Source: a virus (taxonomy: Duplodnaviria; Caudoviricetes). Taken from it: DNA of 64,000 bases. The position numbers and the translations under genes are program-made. Shown one piece after another: positions 9,765 through 33,530 of the stretch (its first letter is position 1; each line of letters opens with the position of its first letter). The stretch spans positions 1 to 64,000 of IMG/VR virus record IMGVR_UViG_2886098363_000001. One strand, written 5' to 3'. The notes beneath the pieces were generated by a model. That model was given only the letters and a program-made list of their open reading frames with translations, was not told the DNA's origin and made no database searches.

Positions 9765-11342
9765 ATGAATCAGTACAGAGCAATTGAAGATGTCATCGAG
9801 AGGCTAGACCAGTCCCTTTGGGAGCCACTGGATGTCGTAGCCTATAGAACAAAGGCTCCGAAATTTATGATCTTGACTCAGATGCTGTCTGTTATCGGAA
9901 TCGCATCACAGCAGCTGGTAGACATTAGCCCCAAAAGCGGGATGAAAATACCGACATCACTTTACACTCTCATTCTAGCGGGTTCCGGTGAGCGAAAAAG
10001 TTCGGTCGATAGAATACTGATGAAGCCAGTCCGTGAATTTGAGAAATGGCTGAGTGAGCAGGCAGAGCATGCACAGCAGAGGTATGAGGTGGATCTTGAA
10101 TTGTGGTGTATGAAGCAAAAAGTGCTAAAGAAGGAATTAGATGAAATGTGTAAACAGGGTGAGGATCAGCCCACCCTGATAGAGGCATGGCGTACTCACA
10201 ATTTGAGTAAACCTACTTCACCAATAGTTAGTAGAATTTTAGCTGAAGATGTAACAGTCGCAAAATTGAAGTCAATTTTAGCAGGTAAAAATACGTCATT
10301 AGCACTAGTGTCCGATGAAGCCGGAACGCTGCTTTCGAGTGATTTGATGAAAGATAATGCATTATTCAACTCATTATGGTCAGGTCAAACTATACGGGTA
10401 GACAGAGCCAACGCTACTGAAGTTCATATCGAAGGTGCACGTTTGACTTTAAGCATGCAAATCCAGCCTGATATATATAAAGCATTCAGGGCCAATAACG
10501 GTGATGCGATGAGAAGCTCAGGATTAGATGCTCGAATTCTAATTTGCGAGCCTGAATCAGAAATTGGTTACCGCCAAGAAGATAGAGATGATAGTCCATC
10601 ATTAGAAGATGATGCTAAATTAGGGAGGTTTAATTCAAGGGTTGATACCCTGCTAAAAGAAGGAATAGGGAATAGACTGAAAGATAAGCCTAGGCATTGC
10701 CTATCATTGACTGATAGGGCTAAGACGTTATGGCTTGATAAATTCAATGAAATTGAATATGCAATGAGAGATGGCGAGTATTTAGAGCACTATAGAGATT
10801 TTGGTTCAAAGTTCATGGAGCAAGCATCTAGAATTGCAGCCGTACTTCATGTCTTTGAACATGACGACTATAGTGGTGTATTTGTTGATTATGACACTAT
10901 GAAAACAGCAATACAGTTGACTGAAATATACTTGCATCAGGCAATGATAATTTTTAGGGCTCCTGAGGCTAGAGAGTATCTGGACATGACTCATGTTAAT
11001 AAATTATTGGAGTGGATAATTCAAAATTGGAAGGGAACATTGTTTTTAAAAAGTGACATCAGACGAAGTGGCCCCCACTGTATACGTAATTTGGATAAGT
11101 TGGAGGACGCGCTTGAAGTTCTTATTGCTAGAGGGGATGTGATTTGCTACAAGAAGAAACAGTCTATATATATTTGTTTATCTTGGAGGAAATATCCACG
11201 TTATGCTCGCCGATCGACATTGAACACTCCGGATGGCACTCATATTAATAAGCTTTCTGAATATTTTGGAAGGTATGACTCACGCATCGCATCAATAAGA
11301 AAATTAAGTGTGCCAGTTATAGATATCCTAGGATCTTATTAA
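9765..11342 (+). CDS. DUF3987/YfjI-family P-loop protein (putative replication helicase)
   Basis: Walker A-like LAGSGERKSS and Walker B-like LVSDEAG; directly after alpA. Confidence 0.85.
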   Translation: MNQYRAIEDVIERLDQSLWEPLDVVAYRTKAPKFMILTQMLSVIGIASQQLVDISPKSGMKIPTSLYTLILAGSGERKSSVDRILMKPVREFEKWLSEQAEHAQQRYEVDLELWCMKQKVLKKELDEMCKQGEDQPTLIEAWRTHNLSKPTSPIVSRILAEDVTVAKLKSILAGKNTSLALVSDEAGTLLSSDLMKDNALFNSLWSGQTIRVDRANATEVHIEGARLTLSMQIQPDIYKAFRANNGDAMRSSGLDARILICEPESEIGYRQEDRDDSPSLEDDAKLGRFNSRVDTLLKEGIGNRLKDKPRHCLSLTDRAKTLWLDKFNEIEYAMRDGEYLEHYRDFGSKFMEQASRIAAVLHVFEHDDYSGVFVDYDTMKTAIQLTEIYLHQAMIIFRAPEAREYLDMTHVNKLLEWIIQNWKGTLFLKSDIRRSGPHCIRNLDKLEDALEVLIARGDVICYKKKQSIYICLSWRKYPRYARRSTLNTPDGTHINKLSEYFGRYDSRIASIRKLSVPVIDILGSY

Positions 11343-25043: not shown

Positions 25044-26972
25044 TTATTGCTGGGCGCCGTTCCCGGCACTGAGTTGCTTCTTGCGCTCGCCGGCGATCTG
25101 CTTGATACCTGCGATGATGTTCTGGTCGCCGGTTTCGTTGGCCCAGGTCCAGGCGGTGGTGTAGGCCTGCTGCCATTCGGTGGTATCACATGCCCCCTCG
25201 ATGGCGGCGCAGTGGTCGGCGTAGGCGTTGGCGTGGTCCGCCTGGGCGGGTTCGGCCATCTGCTCATGCTCCAGGGTGACCGATTCGATGCTCTGGCCGC
25301 GGATGGCATCCAGGGTGCGGCTCTTTGCCGGTGCGCCATGCTGCGGTTGGCTACCTGGGATCTCGTTGATGATGATCTCCTTGCCCTCCATCTCCTCGGC
25401 GGTGGGCTCGCTACCGATCTCCGGCCAGGCCTTGCGTAGCGCCTGCGCTTCTGTGCAATTTCCACACAGCATAGACAGCCCCTTGCGACGAACAACGATG
25501 ACGCCGGATGGCACAGTGACGCACCATACTTGGCCACCTATGTTTGGTTGAATGGTTAGTGAGGCGCGGTTCTTCTCAACGCCCTTTACCACCGGAGAGC
25601 TGATGGTTTCCGAGAGTGTGAACCGGCTACATTGGCCAAGGTCGCTATTTTGAACAGCAGCAACGCTTATCGAGTAGCCAGCTTGCACGGCCAGCACCTC
25701 GAAGGCTTTAATGACATTGGCGTTCGACTGGTGTAACCGCCGCACCGAACCATTATGTGATCCGTCGAACTCCAAAAGGGCATCAACGACAATCCGCGCT
25801 TGGCGCACCGAAAGACTTAGCGCCCACTCAGGGCTTACAGATTTGTCGTGGCACATGATGCCGTTGACCAGCGCTGCGTCATATGTGAATGACTGTTTGT
25901 TACTGGTCGTAGTTATGGGACGATCACCACCGCTGATCCGGCCTGCATCCCGTTTTATTGTCTTTCGCATGTGCAACTTGAGTGAATCAAGTGCGAGCAC
26001 CTTGTATGGGCGCGATACGGCGATGCGGTACTGGTGATAGCCGGTATGTGAACCATCCGCCAGCAAATACCCAACCAGAGCCAGCAGGGAATCTGAAAAT
26101 GGTGCGTCTCCACGGTTTCCCAAAACTGTGCGAGGAATGCTCCATTTATCAGAATCCGTGGTGGCTTGCTCGTAAAGCAACCCCGCCTCGACCCTGCCCT
26201 GATTCGTGATCATGTCGTGATTTGGCGTCACGCAGAAATTTAGGCGAGTGCCATCGGCAACGACCATGGGGCCGTCATAACTCTGAACGAATGGTACAGC
26301 ATCGGTGTATTCGAGTCCGGCATCGGTAACCTGCAAAATACGACCTGTAACTTGGGCGAATCGTTGGAACCCCTCGGAAGTAAGCACCTCAGTCTCCGAG
26401 TCAAAACATTTTGCCAGCTGGGCATACGGACGCTTACGCCACATGGCGTTGGGGCACTCGGTCTTTCCGCTCTGGGTTGCGTAGTTCTCCTTCCAGCGCT
26501 CCAGGGCGTGGAAGGCAACCCGCTGGCCGTTGACCATCTTATAGACGGTGTACTTGCACCACTGCGGGTAGGTGACCTTGATCTTGGCGCTCTGGTTGTA
26601 GGGGTCTTGGAACTCTTCGGTGACATCCGGCCCGAACACGGGTTCATCGGCCCCCGCGTAGTTGCCGGAGCGATCGGCCTGGATCCGGTACATGCCGATC
26701 CCGGGCATCGGCACATCCCGCCAGACCTTCTCTTTGCTGCGGGCATCGGTTACCTGCATGGGGACGAGGTGGACCGGCTTGAGCAGAATATCCAGGCCGC
26801 GCGCCTTACAGTAGTCGATGGCCATGACCACCGAATCGGGGTTGGCTCCCGGGTAAATGGTGTTGCACAGGGCGTTCCAGGTCGGCTCGTCGATGCCTCG
26901 CTGGACAAGAATGGGGAACTGGGCGGCGAAGTTATCGGCCGCCTGCTGTTTGAGGCTGGTGATGTTGCTCAT
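25044..26972 (-). CDS. bet: Bet-like single-strand annealing protein precursor containing an intein
   Basis: YCKARGLDILLKPVHLVP, GIGMYRIQADRSG, MWRKRPYAQLAK|CTEAQALRKAWPE once the insert is removed. Confidence 0.9.
   Translation of the reverse strand: MSNITSLKQQAADNFAAQFPILVQRGIDEPTWNALCNTIYPGANPDSVVMAIDYCKARGLDILLKPVHLVPMQVTDARSKEKVWRDVPMPGIGMYRIQADRSGNYAGADEPVFGPDVTEEFQDPYNQSAKIKVTYPQWCKYTVYKMVNGQRVAFHALERWKENYATQSGKTECPNAMWRKRPYAQLAKCFDSETEVLTSEGFQRFAQVTGRILQVTDAGLEYTDAVPFVQSYDGPMVVADGTRLNFCVTPNHDMITNQGRVEAGLLYEQATTDSDKWSIPRTVLGNRGDAPFSDSLLALVGYLLADGSHTGYHQYRIAVSRPYKVLALDSLKLHMRKTIKRDAGRISGGDRPITTTSNKQSFTYDAALVNGIMCHDKSVSPEWALSLSVRQARIVVDALLEFDGSHNGSVRRLHQSNANVIKAFEVLAVQAGYSISVAAVQNSDLGQCSRFTLSETISSPVVKGVEKNRASLTIQPNIGGQVWCVTVPSGVIVVRRKGLSMLCGNCTEAQALRKAWPEIGSEPTAEEMEGKEIIINEIPGSQPQHGAPAKSRTLDAIRGQSIESVTLEHEQMAEPAQADHANAYADHCAAIEGACDTTEWQQAYTTAWTWANETGDQNIIAGIKQIAGERKKQLSAGNGAQQ
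25458..26408 (-). mobile_element. 317-aa intein with LAGLIDADG homing endonuclease
   Basis: Begins CFDSETEVLT; block B VTPNH; GYLLADG and ALLEFDG motifs; ends VIVVRRKGLSMLCGN before Cys+1; AT-richer than flanks. Confidence 0.92.
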
Positions 26973-28370: not shown

Positions 28371-28393
28371 GGTCTGGGTCCTGTGGTGGTTGA

Positions 28394-28870
28394 TTAGTCG
28401 CTGGTCACGCTGATGGTCAGCTGTTTGCCGCGCCCCATAAAGTCAGCCAGGGCGGCGACGCGATCCTGCTGTTGGGTGACGCGGTGGCGCTGGCTGGTAT
28501 CCAGCACATCCAGATTGACGTTGACGCTGACCTCGACCAACTTGCGGGTCTCGCGTTCCAGCGTCTTGGTGTACTGCTTGGCGGCAATGGCTATCTGTTC
28601 GGACGGGGAAGCCAGCTCGTAACCGTGCCCACGCTTGATGTCGAGATAGATCTTGCGCTCGGTCAGCAGCAGCTCCCGCAACTCGTTGACGCTACGCAGC
28701 ACCCGCCACTCATACTCGTCGCGGGCAGCATCGTATTCGGGGATGCTGTGGTATTTTTCCGGGAAGGGGCGTTCCAACCCCAGCATGCGGCGCAAGTCTG
28801 CGTGACTGATGAAATCGCCGTAGTGGAGCCCGAGAGCATCCCAGGCTGTCAGTTGTTCTTCCTGAGTCAT
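28394..28870 (-). CDS. Accessory protein coupled to the RAMP-like gene
   Basis: 158 aa; its ATG overlaps the upstream TGA (ATGA); helical C-terminus. Confidence 0.75.
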   Translation of the reverse strand: MTQEEQLTAWDALGLHYGDFISHADLRRMLGLERPFPEKYHSIPEYDAARDEYEWRVLRSVNELRELLLTERKIYLDIKRGHGYELASPSEQIAIAAKQYTKTLERETRKLVEVSVNVNLDVLDTSQRHRVTQQQDRVAALADFMGRGKQLTISVTSD

Positions 28871-29454
28871 CCGGCCACCTCCACGTTGAAGCGGCCGTAA
28901 GTGCCGCCGCAGGCTGGGCGCCAGTCGCCCACGCCCACATAGCGACCGGCGTTGCCGAGCACGGTCAGCAGTTCGCTGCGATCCAGCCTGGTGTCGTCAA
29001 ATTCGATGTGAAAGACCAGTTGCCAGCCAGCAGGGAAGCGCGGGCGGTGGCGCATCACTCGTGCGGTCCCCACCTTGACGCTTTTGGCCAGCGAGAAGCC
29101 CGGCGTGTCTACCAGTTGCTGCGGGTCTTGCGGGCCGTCGTAGCGCAGTGTGATCTCATCTTCCAGCACCAGCAGGCTGCGCTTGAATTCGGTACCCAAC
29201 TTGTTGAGCTTGGCCGCCTCGGTCAGGCAGGCTTTCAGGTTGCTGCCCGGCAGGTGGATGCCACTGGCCCTGCTGAAGTAGATCGCCCCCAGTAGTTCGG
29301 AGCGGGCGATATCCTCGTGGTCGGTGTCGGATTTCTTGCGCTTGGAGGTCAATGCCTTGTGCGCCTTGGTCATCGGATCCAGCGGGTCGCTAAAGCGGTC
29401 GCTGTGCATCAGTAACGGGGTGGTGCCCGTCAGTGTCAGTTTCAGTGTTGCCAT
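28867..29454 (-). CDS. Stand-alone RAMP/Cas7-like protein (candidate Vipr-type effector), 195 aa
   Basis: N-terminal LKLTLTGTTPLLMH strand, LPGSNLKACL helix, C-terminal Gly-rich loop GRYVGVGDWRPACGGTYGRF; GAGGA RBS before ATG 29454. Confidence 0.75.
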   Translation of the reverse strand: MATLKLTLTGTTPLLMHSDRFSDPLDPMTKAHKALTSKRKKSDTDHEDIARSELLGAIYFSRASGIHLPGSNLKACLTEAAKLNKLGTEFKRSLLVLEDEITLRYDGPQDPQQLVDTPGFSLAKSVKVGTARVMRHRPRFPAGWQLVFHIEFDDTRLDRSELLTVLGNAGRYVGVGDWRPACGGTYGRFNVEVAG

Positions 29455-29485
29455 TGTGTAGTCCTCGTTGATGTGCCCTTCCGGG

Positions 29486-29547
29486 CCCTTGCCTTGCCCA
29501 GCCAAGCCGGGCCCTGCCACGCCGCGCCCAGCCGGGCCGAGCCGCAG
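29486..29547 (-). ncRNA. GGC-NN pentamer array unit 2 (candidate guide RNA)
   Basis: CTGC GGCtc GGCcc GGCtg GGCgc GGCgt GGCag GGCcc GGCtt GGCtg GGCaa GGCaa GGG, followed by a GCCC-GGAA-GGGC hairpin. Confidence 0.8.
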
Positions 29548-29608
29548 GGCCAAACACACTCAGGGAATGCGCTTGGCGCTGGGCGGTTTTTAACGAGGAC
29601 CGCCACCT

Positions 29609-29670
29609 CCCACGCCTTGCCACGCCATGCCACGCCATGCCCGGCCCTGCCTTGCCTCGCCAGGCCGCAG
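29609..29670 (-). ncRNA. GGC-NN pentamer array unit 1 (candidate guide RNA)
   Basis: CTGC GGCct GGCga GGCaa GGCag GGCcg GGCat GGCgt GGCat GGCgt GGCaa GGCgt GGG, between hairpins at 29668-29704 and 29582-29604. Confidence 0.8.
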
Positions 29671-30080
29671 CCTGGAACCCCCTGTGACAAGAGGCTCCAG
29701 GCTGGCCACTGTCACCAGTGGCCTGCCGGTTACGTTATCCGGCGCTGTCTGGTCAGCCGTTCGCGGTGTCGCGCTCTTGCCGCTAATAACAGGTATCCAC
29801 CCCAGAGTTGCGGACTGCTCTACCCATGCCGCTTGGTTTATTGACCCTGGCCAGATGCAAAGCTGGCTCCCTACAAGGGGACTCGGGGCGCCATCATTAC
29901 TGGCGCATGGATTGGCCGCTTTTAACGGCTGTCGGTCACATCGTTCGCACTCCATGTTGTGTTGAGGTCGCAATAGTCGAGTGATAAATCGTTCACGTTC
30001 ACACGCCGCTTTCCGAATTTACGGGTTATCGGCGCATCCCTACCGGCATCGGGATTCGTGGTTGTGAGCCGGTTCCTGGT

Positions 30081-30092: not shown

Positions 30093-30191
30093 AGCTCAGC
30101 CGAATTTGGCGTGAGCGAAGCCAAAGCATCCTTGCGGTGCTTGTGAAAGAGGCTTTGGCTACGGCGCTATCAGGGAAGCGCCAGACCCGGG

Positions 30192-30446
30192 TCAGATGGC
30201 GTTGCGGTGGAACTCAGCGCGCCAGTGGAGGAGGGCGCGGCATTTCATGGCGGTCATGGTGCGCACCTTGGCAGACTGGGCGGTGCGGGCTGCGACGAGC
30301 TGGTGCCGCTCGGTGGCCATCATGGCAACCGCCAAGCGTTGCTTGATGGTTCGGCGGCGGGCGGCGTTGCCGTTCAGGCGGTCGGCGATGGCGGCAACGA
30401 TCTGGTCGGCGCGTTTTGCGGCTCTGGAAATAGTGACTTTCATCAT
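30192..30446 (-). CDS. First pL gene; small basic protein, possibly N-like
   Basis: MMKVTISRAAKRADQIVAAIADRLNGNAARRRTIKQRLA; Arg-rich. Confidence 0.55.
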   Translation of the reverse strand: MMKVTISRAAKRADQIVAAIADRLNGNAARRRTIKQRLAVAMMATERHQLVAARTAQSAKVRTMTAMKCRALLHWRAEFHRNAI

Positions 30447-30828
30447 GTTATCCTTGCGTCTGTTGGCGAGTTGGTCCTCGCTAATTCCCAGTTGATTCGT
30501 CATGCTGGGTCCTGATTGCTGGGGTTGGTCCCTCGGCTTTCACTGACCGGGTGGTACCCGGTCCTTCGAAGCCCGCCTTGTGCGGGCTTTGTCGTTCTTA
30601 CGCGCTGGTCAGGCGCTTCACTGCTGCCCTGGTTGGGGCTGGGTCCTGTTGCTGGGTGGTACTCAATTCTTTGCTGGCTTTTTACTCCGCCAGATCCGGA
30701 GGTTTGCCGGTTACGTCTCCGGCCCGGGCTCTCACCGTTCGTGTGGCATTACCCAAGACCTTCACCACGATTGGCCGCCTTCCACGCTGCCCCTTGTTGC
30801 TCCCGGCCTTGGGTATTCCATCTCAGCC

Positions 30829-30918
30829 CTTTCCAATTTGAACCGGTTGTTGCTGTTTTGGAATGAGCTGATTATTGCCAAATAGAAATGAAAGGTCAAT
30901 GACGTTCCAAAAAGAAAT
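30829..30918 (-). promoter_or_regulatory. pL promoter with oL operators
   Basis: TTGACC(30899-30894)-17-AATAAT(30876-30871); operator-like 16-mers at 30829, 30874, 30903 (consensus ATTTC-N6-GAAAT). Confidence 0.65.
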
Positions 30919-30939: not shown

Positions 30940-30963
30940 AAAAAGCCCGCCAAGTGGCGGGCT
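30940..30963 (-). terminator. cI terminator
   Basis: AGCCCGCC-AAGT-GGCGGGCT hairpin with a U-tract on the minus strand. Confidence 0.75.
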
Positions 30964-30986: not shown

Positions 30987-31598
30987 TCAAGAGGGGAGGC
31001 GGATCTCGATAACTTTGCCTATGGGGAGTAGTTGTTTATCGGTGAGAGAACCTGCACGAGGGTCATCCACGCCATAACGCCAATCTGGTAGGCCCTGGAT
31101 CGCACGCAGGAACATGAACTTGTCGTCCACCTTGGCCAGCATGATCTTGTTGTGTTCTGGCTTGTTATCACTGAGATCAACCAAGCACAAGGCTCCATTG
31201 GTAATGCCTGCATCAGCCAGTTGGTCATTGTCAGCTACCACGGCTATCAGGTGGCCGTCCCTCTCTGTAGCCAGCTTGCGGCCTGTGTCTGCGTGGGGCC
31301 AGGCATCGATAGTGGGGTCTTCCAGTAGCCCAGGCATAGTAAAAACAGGCACCATGCCGGGACCCGCTTCGATGTCACGAATAAGGCTGTCTGCGGAGCG
31401 CCCTAGATATAGCCAGACAGGGTCAACCTTCAACTGCTTGGCAATGGACATGAGGCTACTTGCTCTAACCTCTCGGCCAGGTTCAGAGAGTATTCGGCTG
31501 ATCACCGGTGGGGATATCCCTGTTTTGCGGCTCAGTTCAGCGGCGCTCACATGTAACTCTTTCATCCTTGCCTGCAATCGTTCCGCAAAGTTTTTCAT
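30987..31598 (-). CDS. cI: CI-like repressor (HTH + S24-like C-domain)
   Basis: LHVSAAELSRKTGISPPVISRIL HTH; divergent from cro. Confidence 0.85.
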   Translation of the reverse strand: MKNFAERLQARMKELHVSAAELSRKTGISPPVISRILSEPGREVRASSLMSIAKQLKVDPVWLYLGRSADSLIRDIEAGPGMVPVFTMPGLLEDPTIDAWPHADTGRKLATERDGHLIAVVADNDQLADAGITNGALCLVDLSDNKPEHNKIMLAKVDDKFMFLRAIQGLPDWRYGVDDPRAGSLTDKQLLPIGKVIEIRLPS

Positions 31599-31727: not shown

Positions 31728-31943
31728 ATGCGTATCGACGATGTAACCAAGTTCTTTGGCAATGCGGCCAAGGCGTGCAACGCCATCGGCACGAGCCAAT
31801 CAAATTTCACCAAGTGGAGGAAGCTGAACAAGGGCATTGTCCCGGCCCAGCATGCCGTCCAGTTTGTGTTGGCCAGCAATGGCGAGCTGCGACTGGGGCT
31901 GGAGGATTACTCCCTCAGCAAGACCCAAGACCAAGCCGCCTAA
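31728..31943 (+). CDS. cro: Cro-like repressor
   Basis: FFGNAAKACNAIGTSQSNFTKW...GIVPAQHA. Confidence 0.85.
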   Translation: MRIDDVTKFFGNAAKACNAIGTSQSNFTKWRKLNKGIVPAQHAVQFVLASNGELRLGLEDYSLSKTQDQAA

Positions 31944-33140: not shown

Positions 33141-33530
33141 ATGGGAAGAGTAACGCTCCCCGATCATGAAAATATGAGCACCCGCTCCCCGCTGCGGGTG
33201 CGCGGCACCCCAGCTCAGCGCCAGGTATGGCAGGAAGTAGGCGCCGAGTGTGGCATGACTGAAACCGCATTTGCCCGCACCTCGCTGCTGATCCTGCTCC
33301 AGGCAATATCTCAGCATGAGCCCGGCATCTTGGCGAGGGCCGTCAAACGGGCCAATCGGAGCCTGCTCGAGCAGGGATTTCCGCCCGTGACCGTCGAGGA
33401 GATCCTGGATGGCTCCGGTCTGCCCGAGCGCGGCCTGCTCCAGTTCAGCCAAGAAGACGAGGCCGCCTACAACGAGGAGCGCCCGCTGCGCCCCCTGCAA
33501 AAACTCATCAACTTTGTCCTCGGGAGGTAA
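33141..33530 (+). CDS. Hypothetical regulator (CII position)
   Basis: RHH-like PLRVRGTPAQRQVWQEVG; GAGG RBS. Confidence 0.6.
   Translation: MGRVTLPDHENMSTRSPLRVRGTPAQRQVWQEVGAECGMTETAFARTSLLILLQAISQHEPGILARAVKRANRSLLEQGFPPVTVEEILDGSGLPERGLLQFSQEDEAAYNEERPLRPLQKLINFVLGR

What the first reader, a model, noticed from the sequence alone, without database searches (positions are those of the whole stretch)
29486..29670. Decoded guide strings predict gapped DNA targets, possibly in rival phages or satellites
Seen: with GGC removed, unit 1 reads CT GA AA AG CG AT GT AT GT AA GT and unit 2 reads TC CC TG GC GT AG CC TT TG AA AA, i.e. 22 informative nt each. Inference: if every third target base is skipped (my recollection of the VIPR rule), the targets are CTnGAnAAnAGnCGnATnGTnATnGTnAAnGT and TCnCCnTGnGCnGTnAGnCCnTTnTGnAAnAA, or their reverse complements. 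In coding DNA the skipped base could be the wobble position, which would resist synonymous escape. Unit 1 would then read L-D/E-N/K-S/R-R-I/M-V-I/M-V-N/K-V. A partial search by eye found no match in this window.
Basis: inference. Interest (0 to 1): 0.75.

Follow-up and report, generated by a model that had tools for sequence, protein, structure and literature searches.

The report
Phage VIPR guides; one target found
Two repeat arrays in this Aeromonas prophage are guide RNAs of the recently published VIPR gene-silencing system: the first spells the start of an early gene as rival sister phages carry it, while this phage's own copy is recoded there, and no target was found for the second.

Summary
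They are the only such arrays in the 76-kb contig. They lie directly upstream of a gene whose product matches SUSP1 Vipr (PDB 36pp, E 1.5e-47) and of a vap1 homologue.

Unit 1 has a real target. Its first nine dinucleotides match 18/18 (19/22 overall) at one homologous site in four Aeromonas sister prophages. That site is the ribosome-binding region, ATG and first eight codons (MTIRLFSR) of the first ORF behind the PL-like promoter. It is read on the reverse complement, and the skipped base is the codon wobble position. No shuffled guide reached this score, and other gap sizes gave nothing. The window's own allele matches only 11/22, in a 32-nt recoded patch inside an otherwise about 98% identical gene.

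Unit 2 found nothing above chance in the contig, 1.1 Mb of sister phages, IMG/VR or JGI metagenomes.

This is a new member of a known kind. This scan reported "guide beside recoded target" earlier on other DNA (e1-5700458, e1-5759963).

The parts
29612..29666 (-). vrRNA 1 guide array: 11 GGC-NN units (CT GA AA AG CG AT GT AT GT AA GT). This is the 'A-slot' guide of the clade.
   Evidence: The same guide with a different last unit occurs in L031.
29569..29611 (-). Tail A of vrRNA 1. It begins GGGAGGTGGCGGTCCTCGTTAAAAACCGCC and is conserved in the clade. By inspection, GAGG/CCTC and GGCGG/CCGCC could form an H-type pseudoknot. The stretch that follows is the conserved leader of the next unit.
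   Evidence: The pseudoknot is my inspection only and was not tested by covariation.
29672..29700 (-). A 13-bp hairpin immediately 5' of vrRNA 1, conserved as the leader of A-slot units.
29489..29543 (-). vrRNA 2 guide array: 11 GGC-NN units (TC CC TG GC GT AG CC TT TG AA AA). It has a B-slot leader but a C-slot tail, so it is a hybrid unit left by a deletion between the B and C arrays. Its target is unknown.
   Evidence: three-unit loci compared with the window and L003. Its last five units recur in G005.
29455..29488 (-). Tail C (GGGCCCGGAAGGGCAC...), which runs into the Shine-Dalgarno sequence and ATG of vipr.
28867..29454 (-). vipr, 195 aa, a RAMP protein.
   Evidence: E 1.5e-47 to PDB 36pp 'SUSP1 Vipr protein'. 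H17, K33, R39, K82, R138, D177, W178 and R179 are conserved (one search read). It matches phrog_4652.
28394..28870 (-). vap1-like accessory gene, 158 aa, with a 4-nt overlap with vipr.
   Evidence: 30% identity, E 1e-18, to the gene after vipr in SUSP1-like phage CL1; 27%, E 3e-12, to that of LESphi2. It matches phrog_5926.
30192..30503 (-). Small early-left ORF (103 aa; the probable true start is the invariant internal Met20, giving 84 aa). It is the first ORF after the PL-like promoter and its function is unknown. Its alleles in sister phages are the target of unit 1.
   Evidence: No family was found. The AF2 model is one long helix.
30424..30455 (-). The window's own copy of the unit-1 footprint. 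It is recoded, matching the guide at 11/22, and is 19/32 identical to G002 while the rest of the ORF is 229/232 identical.
30871..30899 (-). PL-like promoter TTGACC-17-AATAAT, downstream of the cI terminator (30963..30944).
   Evidence: An identical promoter stands in target phage L041. This is a consensus match only.
30987..31598 (-). cI-like repressor (HTH_3 plus a weak Peptidase_S24 match below Pfam's gathering cut-off).
29590..29624 (-). Junction of the vrRNA 1 array and tail A. It is the predicted target (21/22) of the A-slot guide of the L004-type sister phages.
   Evidence: That guide matches its own locus at only 17/22.

Best explanation
This is a type II VIPR locus inserted in the early-left (PL) operon of a lambdoid Aeromonas prophage. 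The two GGC-NN arrays are vrRNA genes. By homology with SUSP1, Vipr protomers bind one GGC each, present the NN pairs, and bind double-stranded DNA in which every third base is skipped, blocking transcription. vrRNA 1 is aimed at the coding strand of the first PL gene of sister phages. Its footprint covers the ribosome-binding region, the ATG and codons 2-8 of the MTIRLFSR allele, about 550 nt downstream of the PL-like promoter. It would therefore act as a roadblock on the rival's early-left operon. The phage's own allele is recoded across exactly this footprint, so it is spared. vrRNA 2 is a genuine guide of the same kind whose target lies in DNA I could not search or that has not been sampled. 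Shown here: the anatomy, the homology, the in-silico targeting rule, the target site and the avoidance of self. Inferred: that the vrRNAs are expressed, that the complex binds and silences, and what silencing does to the rival.
For: Vipr matches PDB 36pp at E 1.5e-47 with the RNA- and DNA-contact residues conserved, and there is a vap1 homologue. The scaffold and tails are conserved while the NN dinucleotides are hypervariable across 30 loci. Across the clade, hits number 601 at gap 1 against 10, 21 and 47 at other gaps and 29-51 for shuffled guides. For unit 1, the exact nine-unit pattern gives 3 hits in the whole of IMG/VR, all at the same gene start; two other patterns with 18 fully specified bases gave 0 hits. 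Unit 1 scores 19/22 in L025 plus three IMG/VR proviruses and at least 17/22 at the homologous site 52 times at gap 1, and never at least 17/22 at gaps 0 or 2; at gap 3 the two matches of 17 or more are presumably guide arrays of the same family in fetched VIPR loci (21 = L031). None of 200 shuffles reaches 19/22 or 18/18. The skipped bases are the codon third positions. A sister guide (L026A) follows the MTKRIFSR allele of the same site. The best match in the own contig is 15/22 and the own allele scores 11/22. The recoded patch is 19/32 identical inside the footprint against 229/232 downstream. Other guides of the clade hit antirepressor start codons, cro and a rival's vrRNA junction, which matches the published target classes.
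Against: The two 3'-most units of unit 1 mismatch the best targets at 3 of 4 nt, whereas in the SUSP1 cryo-EM series the protomers near the 3' pseudoknot are resolved in every class and further protomers appear in an apparent 3'-to-5' direction; the mismatch tolerance of this clade is unknown. The target ORF has no known function, so the effect on the rival is a guess. Unit 2 has no target above chance anywhere I searched.
Confidence: 0.8

Rival explanations
1. Unit 2, and perhaps both units, is a dead recombination product. The arrays recombine through their GGC repeats, so the hybrid B-leader/C-tail unit would be a scar with a guide that no longer has a target.
For: The window lacks the middle unit found in most relatives. 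G005, whose Vipr is 100% identical, carries a single chimeric array made of unit-1 units 1-4 plus unit-2 units 7-11. L017 has a four-unit internal duplication. No target was found for unit 2.
Against: In L003 the same kind of hybrid keeps an intact B-slot guide that it shares with L026, so the deletion removes a tail and a neighbouring array, not the guide. Most B- and C-slot guides of intact three-unit loci are equally without a target in the same databases, so having no target here reflects sampling, not decay. Unit 1 clearly has a target.
Confidence: 0.15
2. The vrRNAs regulate the phage's own genes by binding sites in its own genome, rather than attacking rivals.
For: The locus sits in the phage's own early operon, and tail A contains a 9-10 nt complement of the vipr Shine-Dalgarno region.
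Against: No site in the 76-kb contig exceeds 16/22 at any gap, the same as for shuffled guides. Within the locus and the small ORF the best scores are 14/22 and 12/22. The own allele is the worst-matching allele of the target site.
Confidence: 0.03
3. Unit 2 is aimed at a host gene, for example a defence gene, or at a satellite or plasmid, and not at a phage.
For: Published SUSP1 guides hit a satellite, and satellite guides hit host REP elements. Earlier notes of this scan report VIPR guides that spell motifs of defence genes (not checked by me). B- and C-slot guides of this clade almost never hit sister phages, even five whole sister proviruses.
Against: Nothing direct. No Aeromonas chromosome, satellite or plasmid set could be pattern-searched here. 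The 20 exact 18/18 hits in JGI metagenomes are in mixed frames, mixed GC content and unrelated contigs.
Confidence: 0.5

Closest known systems
Type II VIPR of Pseudomonas prophages (the P. fulva prophage system of bioRxiv 10.64898/2026.04.26.720920; a similar locus in P. aeruginosa phage LESphi2, OQ594955)
   Same: A temperate lambdoid phage with the layout cro | cI | one ORF | vrRNAs | vipr | vap. Vipr is 48% identical and vap is homologous. The published targets are lysis-lysogeny regulators of other prophages and other VIPR loci, as found here for the Aeromonas clade.
   Different: A different genus. Vipr is under 50% identical. There are three slot-specific tails of different sequence. The unit-1 target is an uncharacterised first PL ORF, not a named regulator.
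Type II VIPR of Escherichia phage SUSP1 (Felixounavirus; PDB 36pp; bioRxiv 10.64898/2026.04.26.720927 and 10.64898/2026.10.15.759431)
   Same: Vipr is 45% identical with the contact residues conserved. It has vap1, GGY-NN vrRNAs of 9-16 units with a 3' tail, the one-base skip rule, the skipped base at the wobble position, guides against rivals' vrRNA junctions, and solo vrRNAs in vipr-less relatives.
   Different: SUSP1 is a lytic myovirus with one vrRNA upstream and three downstream. Its main target is a satellite's excision recombinase. In the SUSP1 structures all 12 units pair, whereas here the last unit usually does not match.
Class 1 CRISPR Cas7-crRNA backbone
   Same: A RAMP filament on a guide RNA with thumb-induced periodic base flipping.
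   Different: There is no CRISPR array, no adaptation genes and no nuclease. Three guide bases and one target base are skipped per unit, instead of one base in six.
'Solo VIPR guide beside recoded target', reported earlier in this scan (e1-5700458, e1-5759963)
   Same: The guide spells a neighbouring gene as sister phages carry it, and the own copy is changed at the letters the guide reads.
   Different: Here the guide is part of a complete vipr-vap locus and lies about 750 nt from the recoded patch. Those notes were not re-checked by me.

Membership tests
VIPR (type II) | Vipr RAMP protein homologous to characterised Vipr | tested here: met
   phmmer E 1.5e-47 over residues 3-193 to PDB 36pp SUSP1 Vipr.
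VIPR (type II) | Residues that read GGY and hold the DNA (SUSP1 H17, D177, R138, W178, R179, K33, R39, K82) | tested here: met
   All eight are identical in the alignment, using the numbering. The pocket and clamp residues E71, M72, K88 and C173 differ (S, N, T, V).
VIPR (type II) | vrRNA genes of 9-16 tandem GGY-NN pentamers next to vipr, on its strand | tested here: met
   Two arrays of 11 units lie 1-210 nt upstream of vipr.
VIPR (type II) | GGY conserved and NN hypervariable among close relatives | tested here: met
   51 distinct guides among loci with at least 90% identical Vipr, with the scaffold invariant.
VIPR (type II) | Invariant structured 3' tail (a pseudoknot in the SUSP1 clade) | tested here: inconclusive
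   Three conserved tail classes, A, B and C. Tail A can be drawn as a pseudoknot by inspection. No covariation test was done and no RNA ends are known.
VIPR (type II) | vap1 accessory gene after vipr | tested here: met
   BLASTP E 1e-18 (CL1) and 3e-12 (LESphi2).
VIPR (type II) | Natural targets follow the one-base skip rule at >=80% NN match, with no self-target | tested here: met
   Clade: 601 hits against 10, 21 and 47. Unit 1: 19/22 = 86%. Own contig: at most 16/22. Unit 2: not met.
VIPR (type II) | vrRNAs are expressed, co-purify with Vipr and silence transcription | not testable with these tools

The most novel reading that the evidence does not exclude
The vrRNA slots divide the work. 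A-slot guides such as unit 1 attack the switch and early genes of near-identical sister phages, and each sits beside a recoded, resistant copy of its own target. B- and C-slot guides such as unit 2 are reserved for a different class of element, not yet sampled, such as a satellite, a plasmid or a host gene. On this reading the guide and its resistant allele travel as a linked weapon-and-immunity pair that drives the 30-nt hypervariable patch in the first PL gene of Aeromonas lambdoid phages.
Probability: 0.35. Interest if true: 0.6.

Novelty: new member of a known kind. Interest (0 to 1): 0.45.

Why it matters
VIPR was described only in 2026, and natural targets are published for the E. coli SUSP1 and Pseudomonas clades. 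This locus adds an Aeromonas prophage clade in which the rule can be checked against natural allele series. One guide family follows at least two alleles of one 32-nt site, the carrier's own allele is recoded exactly under the footprint, and rival phages aim guides back at this phage's vrRNA junction, small ORF and cro. That gives a compact, testable case of phage-phage conflict. The start of the first PL gene becomes a candidate control point. The data also suggest that the last repeat unit of this clade is not used for pairing. None of this changes the known mechanism.

Tried and rejected
Unit 2 target search:
- Own contig at gaps 0-3: best 16/22, the same as shuffled guides.
- 1.07 Mb of sister-phage loci: best 16/22 at gap 1, 17 at gap 0.
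- Five whole sister proviruses; then three further IMG/VR sister-phage records (two linear fragments, one provirus; 39-87% complete) and phages phiARM81mr and PCAh2, all at up to 3 mismatches: none.
- IMG/VR, exact nine-unit pattern: 0 hits.
- IMG/VR, three 16-base sub-patterns: 9 hits each, all in environmental contigs, scoring 16-18/22.
- JGI metagenomes, nine-unit pattern: 20 hits (about 9 distinct), in mixed frames and GC content, none continuing into AA AA. I read this as chance.

Other attempts:
- A guide family shared by three relatives gave 0 hits in IMG/VR.
- Aeromonas species genomes could not be reached.
- An even sample of 401 genomes drawn from the class of the one bacterial genome with a handle (G009) gave no named handles.
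- Small ORF function: no match in Pfam, PHROGs, NCBIfam or the Atlas. The AF2 model is one long helix, so I ran no fold search.
- Co-segregation of the recoded allele with VIPR (16/19) turned out to be a sampling artefact. In the unbiased IMG/VR sample 1 of 5 loci with the recoded allele carries vipr, against 3 of 42 with other alleles.
- The complementarity between tail A and the vipr Shine-Dalgarno region shows no covariation.

Full report
**What is there.**
- Read on the minus strand, window 29700..29455 holds a 13-bp hairpin, then CTGC, then 11 GGC-NN pentamers, then GGG and a tail. After a conserved linker the same plan repeats, running straight into the Shine-Dalgarno sequence and ATG of a 195-aa ORF.
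- A scan of the whole 76,317-bp record, of which the window is the first 64 kb, finds only these two arrays.

**The system.**
- The 195-aa protein matches the solved 'SUSP1 Vipr protein' (PDB 36pp) at E 1.5e-47 over its full length.
- Reading that alignment against the cryo-EM paper, the residues that hold G1, G2 and Y3 and clamp the DNA are all identical: H17, D177, R138, W178, R179, K33, R39 and K82. E71, M72, K88 and C173 differ.
- The next ORF (158 aa, 4-nt overlap) is homologous to the gene after vipr in SUSP1-like phage CL1 (E 1e-18) and in P. aeruginosa phage LESphi2. It is therefore a vap1 homologue.
- VIPR is described in three 2026 preprints. Vipr protomers bind each GGY of a vrRNA and present the NN pairs. 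These pair with double-stranded DNA in which one base is skipped per unit, and binding represses transcription.

**Genomic setting.**
- The locus sits in a lambdoid Aeromonas prophage. The nearest named phage is phiARM81mr, which lacks vipr.
- On the minus strand the order is: cI-like repressor, terminator, a PL-like promoter (TTGACC-17-AATAAT), a small ORF (30503..30192), about 490 nt of non-coding DNA, the two vrRNAs, vipr, vap, a 63-aa ORF, a PD-(D/E)XK exonuclease and RecT.
- Whole-provirus comparison shows that window 28385-29990 has no counterpart in four sister proviruses. Part of this stretch (29706-29990) is a separate variable element. The VIPR cassette proper is therefore about 28385-29705.
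- LESphi2 has the same layout: cro | cI | ORF | vrRNAs | vipr | vap.

**The clade.**
- Proteins at least 90% identical to this Vipr occur in A. salmonicida, A. veronii and many metagenomes.
- Thirty loci were fetched.
- Most have three vrRNAs upstream of vipr, each slot with its own conserved leader and tail (A, B, C). The NN dinucleotides differ freely, giving 51 distinct guides.
- The window has two units. Unit 1 is an A-slot unit. Unit 2 has the B leader and the C tail, so a deletion between the B and C arrays removed one unit. L003 shows the same, and there the B-slot guide survives intact.
- G005, whose Vipr is 100% identical, carries one array made of unit-1 units 1-4 plus unit-2 units 7-11. 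This is a 123-nt deletion between the window's two arrays. The arrays evidently recombine through their repeats.

**The rule holds here.** I searched all 51 guides against 1.1 Mb of Aeromonas phage loci and counted hits at >=80% NN match:

| Search | Hits |
|---|---|
| Gap 1 | 601 |
| Gap 0 | 10 |
| Gap 2 | 21 |
| Gap 3 | 47 |
| Shuffled guides, gap 1 | 29-51 |

The first, smaller database gave 135 hits at gap 1 against 1, 4 and 0 at the other gaps.

**Unit 1 target.**
- The best matches are 19/22, with the first nine units perfect (18/18). They occur in L025 (an Aeromonas genome) and in three IMG/VR proviruses.
- An exact nine-unit pattern scan of the whole of IMG/VR returned three contigs, all at this same site. 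Two other patterns with 18 fully specified bases returned none.
- None of 200 shuffled guides reached 19/22 or 18/18.
- The reverse complement of the guide reads ACn TTn ACn ATn ACn ATn CGn CTn TTn TCn AGn. On the target this is ..ACC ATG ACC ATA CGC CTT TTT TCC AGG, which encodes T-M-T-I-R-L-F-S-R of the small ORF. Every skipped base is a codon third position.
- The vrRNA therefore has the antisense sequence and would pair with the coding strand. The published system silences from either strand.
- Met20 of the 103-aa reading is invariant, and the first ATG is missing in several relatives. The footprint probably covers the ribosome-binding region, the start codon and eight codons of an 84-aa protein. 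It lies about 550 nt downstream of the PL-like promoter.

Among 47 dereplicated sister loci found through the ORF itself, the site scored as follows:

| Score | Loci |
|---|---|
| 19/22 | 3 |
| 18/22 | 7 |
| 17/22 | 28 |
| 15-16/22 | 4 |
| 11/22 | 5 |

- The three best loci lack vipr.
- A related guide in L026 follows the MTKRIFSR allele of the same site (18/20), and L031 carries unit 1 with a different last unit.

**Avoidance of self.**
- The window's own allele (..KDNMMKVTISR) scores 11/22.
- Against provirus G002, the ORF is 229/232 identical downstream of the footprint and 43/48 upstream, but only 19/32 identical inside it. G002's cI-cro region aligns to the window's at 94% nucleotide identity.
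- The recoded patch is window 30455..30424.
- An apparent association of this allele with VIPR disappeared in the unbiased sample, and I do not claim it.

**The last unit.**
- In 10 of the 15 best guide-target pairs the 3'-most unit mismatches.
- Many guides end in AA or AA AA.
- This suggests that the unit next to the tail is structural in this clade. It sits uneasily with the SUSP1 structures, in which all 12 units pair and the protomers near the 3' pseudoknot are resolved in every class, with further protomers appearing in an apparent 3'-to-5' direction.

**Other targets in the clade.**
- Guides hit the start codons of two antirepressor types (Bro-N/ANT and pRha/ANT), cro, other parts of the small ORF, and the array/tail-A junction of rival vrRNAs.
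- The window itself is a predicted target in five places:

| Window site | Score | Feature |
|---|---|---|
| 29624..29590 | 21/22 | vrRNA 1 array/tail-A junction; the attacker's own locus scores 17/22 |
| 30187-30221 | 19/22 | 3' end of the small ORF |
| 30450-30484 | 20/24 | 5' part of the small ORF |
| 33261-33295 | 18/20 | not identified (a 151-aa ORF overlapping it has no Pfam match) |
| 31839-31870 | 16/20 | cro |

(Sites and scores.)

- These classes match the published ones.

**Unit 2.**
- No site reaches 80% at any gap in any of the following: the contig, the sister loci, the five whole sister proviruses, the three further (incomplete) IMG/VR sister-phage records, or two deposited Aeromonas phages.
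- The IMG/VR exact nine-unit scan gave 0 hits. Three 16-base sub-patterns gave 9 hits each, all environmental and scoring 16-18/22.
- JGI metagenomes gave 20 exact hits, about nine distinct, in unrelated contigs and frames. This looks like chance, although I have no figure for the number expected.
- B- and C-slot guides of intact loci are almost all equally without a target. The one clear exception hits an antirepressor start codon.
- The likeliest reading is that these slots aim at DNA that is not in the collections I could pattern-search. Aeromonas chromosomes, plasmids and satellites were out of reach.

**Verdict.** The locus is a new Aeromonas member of published type II VIPR systems. The target map, the recoded patch and the reciprocal targeting are useful but expected extensions of that work. 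This scan has already reported guide-beside-recoded-target cases on other DNA.

Noticed in passing
window 29706-29990: A non-coding element of about 210-285 nt lies between the small ORF and vrRNA 1. It is present in some sister phages whether or not they carry VIPR. It also occurs at 82-84% identity in an intergenic region of the apparently unrelated Aeromonas phage PCAh2 (PQ314494; apart from this ~200-nt stretch it shared nothing with the 6-kb query) and in a 44-kb A. hydrophila plasmid (NZ_CP095283.1). It has no Rfam match. It could be a small mobile or structured RNA module.
   Followed up: partly
L050/L085 (IMGVR_UViG_2879030280_000001), about 10564-10610 in L050: The closest relative (Vipr 100% identical) has a single vrRNA, CT GA AA AG CC TT TG AA AA. 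This equals window unit-1 units 1-4 joined to unit-2 units 7-11, a 123-nt deletion that makes a chimeric guide.
   Followed up: partly
L064 (IMGVR_UViG_2639762719_000002) 10570-10754: A sister phage with no vipr or vap by tblastn still carries GGC-NN arrays, one of them interrupted and followed by tail A. This is the solo-vrRNA situation published for the SUSP1 family. Its guide family is predicted to hit the 3' end of the window's small ORF (30187-30221, 19/22).
   Followed up: partly
window 25458-26406 (inside RecT, 25044-26972): The 642-aa RecT carries an in-frame insert of about 950 nt that is absent from sister proviruses G001 and G002.
   Followed up: partly
window 29590-29600 and 29462-29472 (minus strand): The loop of tail A (GGTCCTCGTT) is complementary to the vipr Shine-Dalgarno region (AACGAGGACT). 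The minimum-free-energy fold pairs them around unit 2. Relatives show no compensatory changes.
   Followed up: partly
L004, L006-L008, L012, L013 (about 4219-4644 in L004): In one sub-lineage a PemK-family toxin gene is inserted just after vap.
   Followed up: no
L017 2761-2842: This B-slot array has 16 units because a four-unit block (GC GT GC CG) is duplicated relative to L014. This is further evidence of slippage or recombination within arrays.
   Followed up: no
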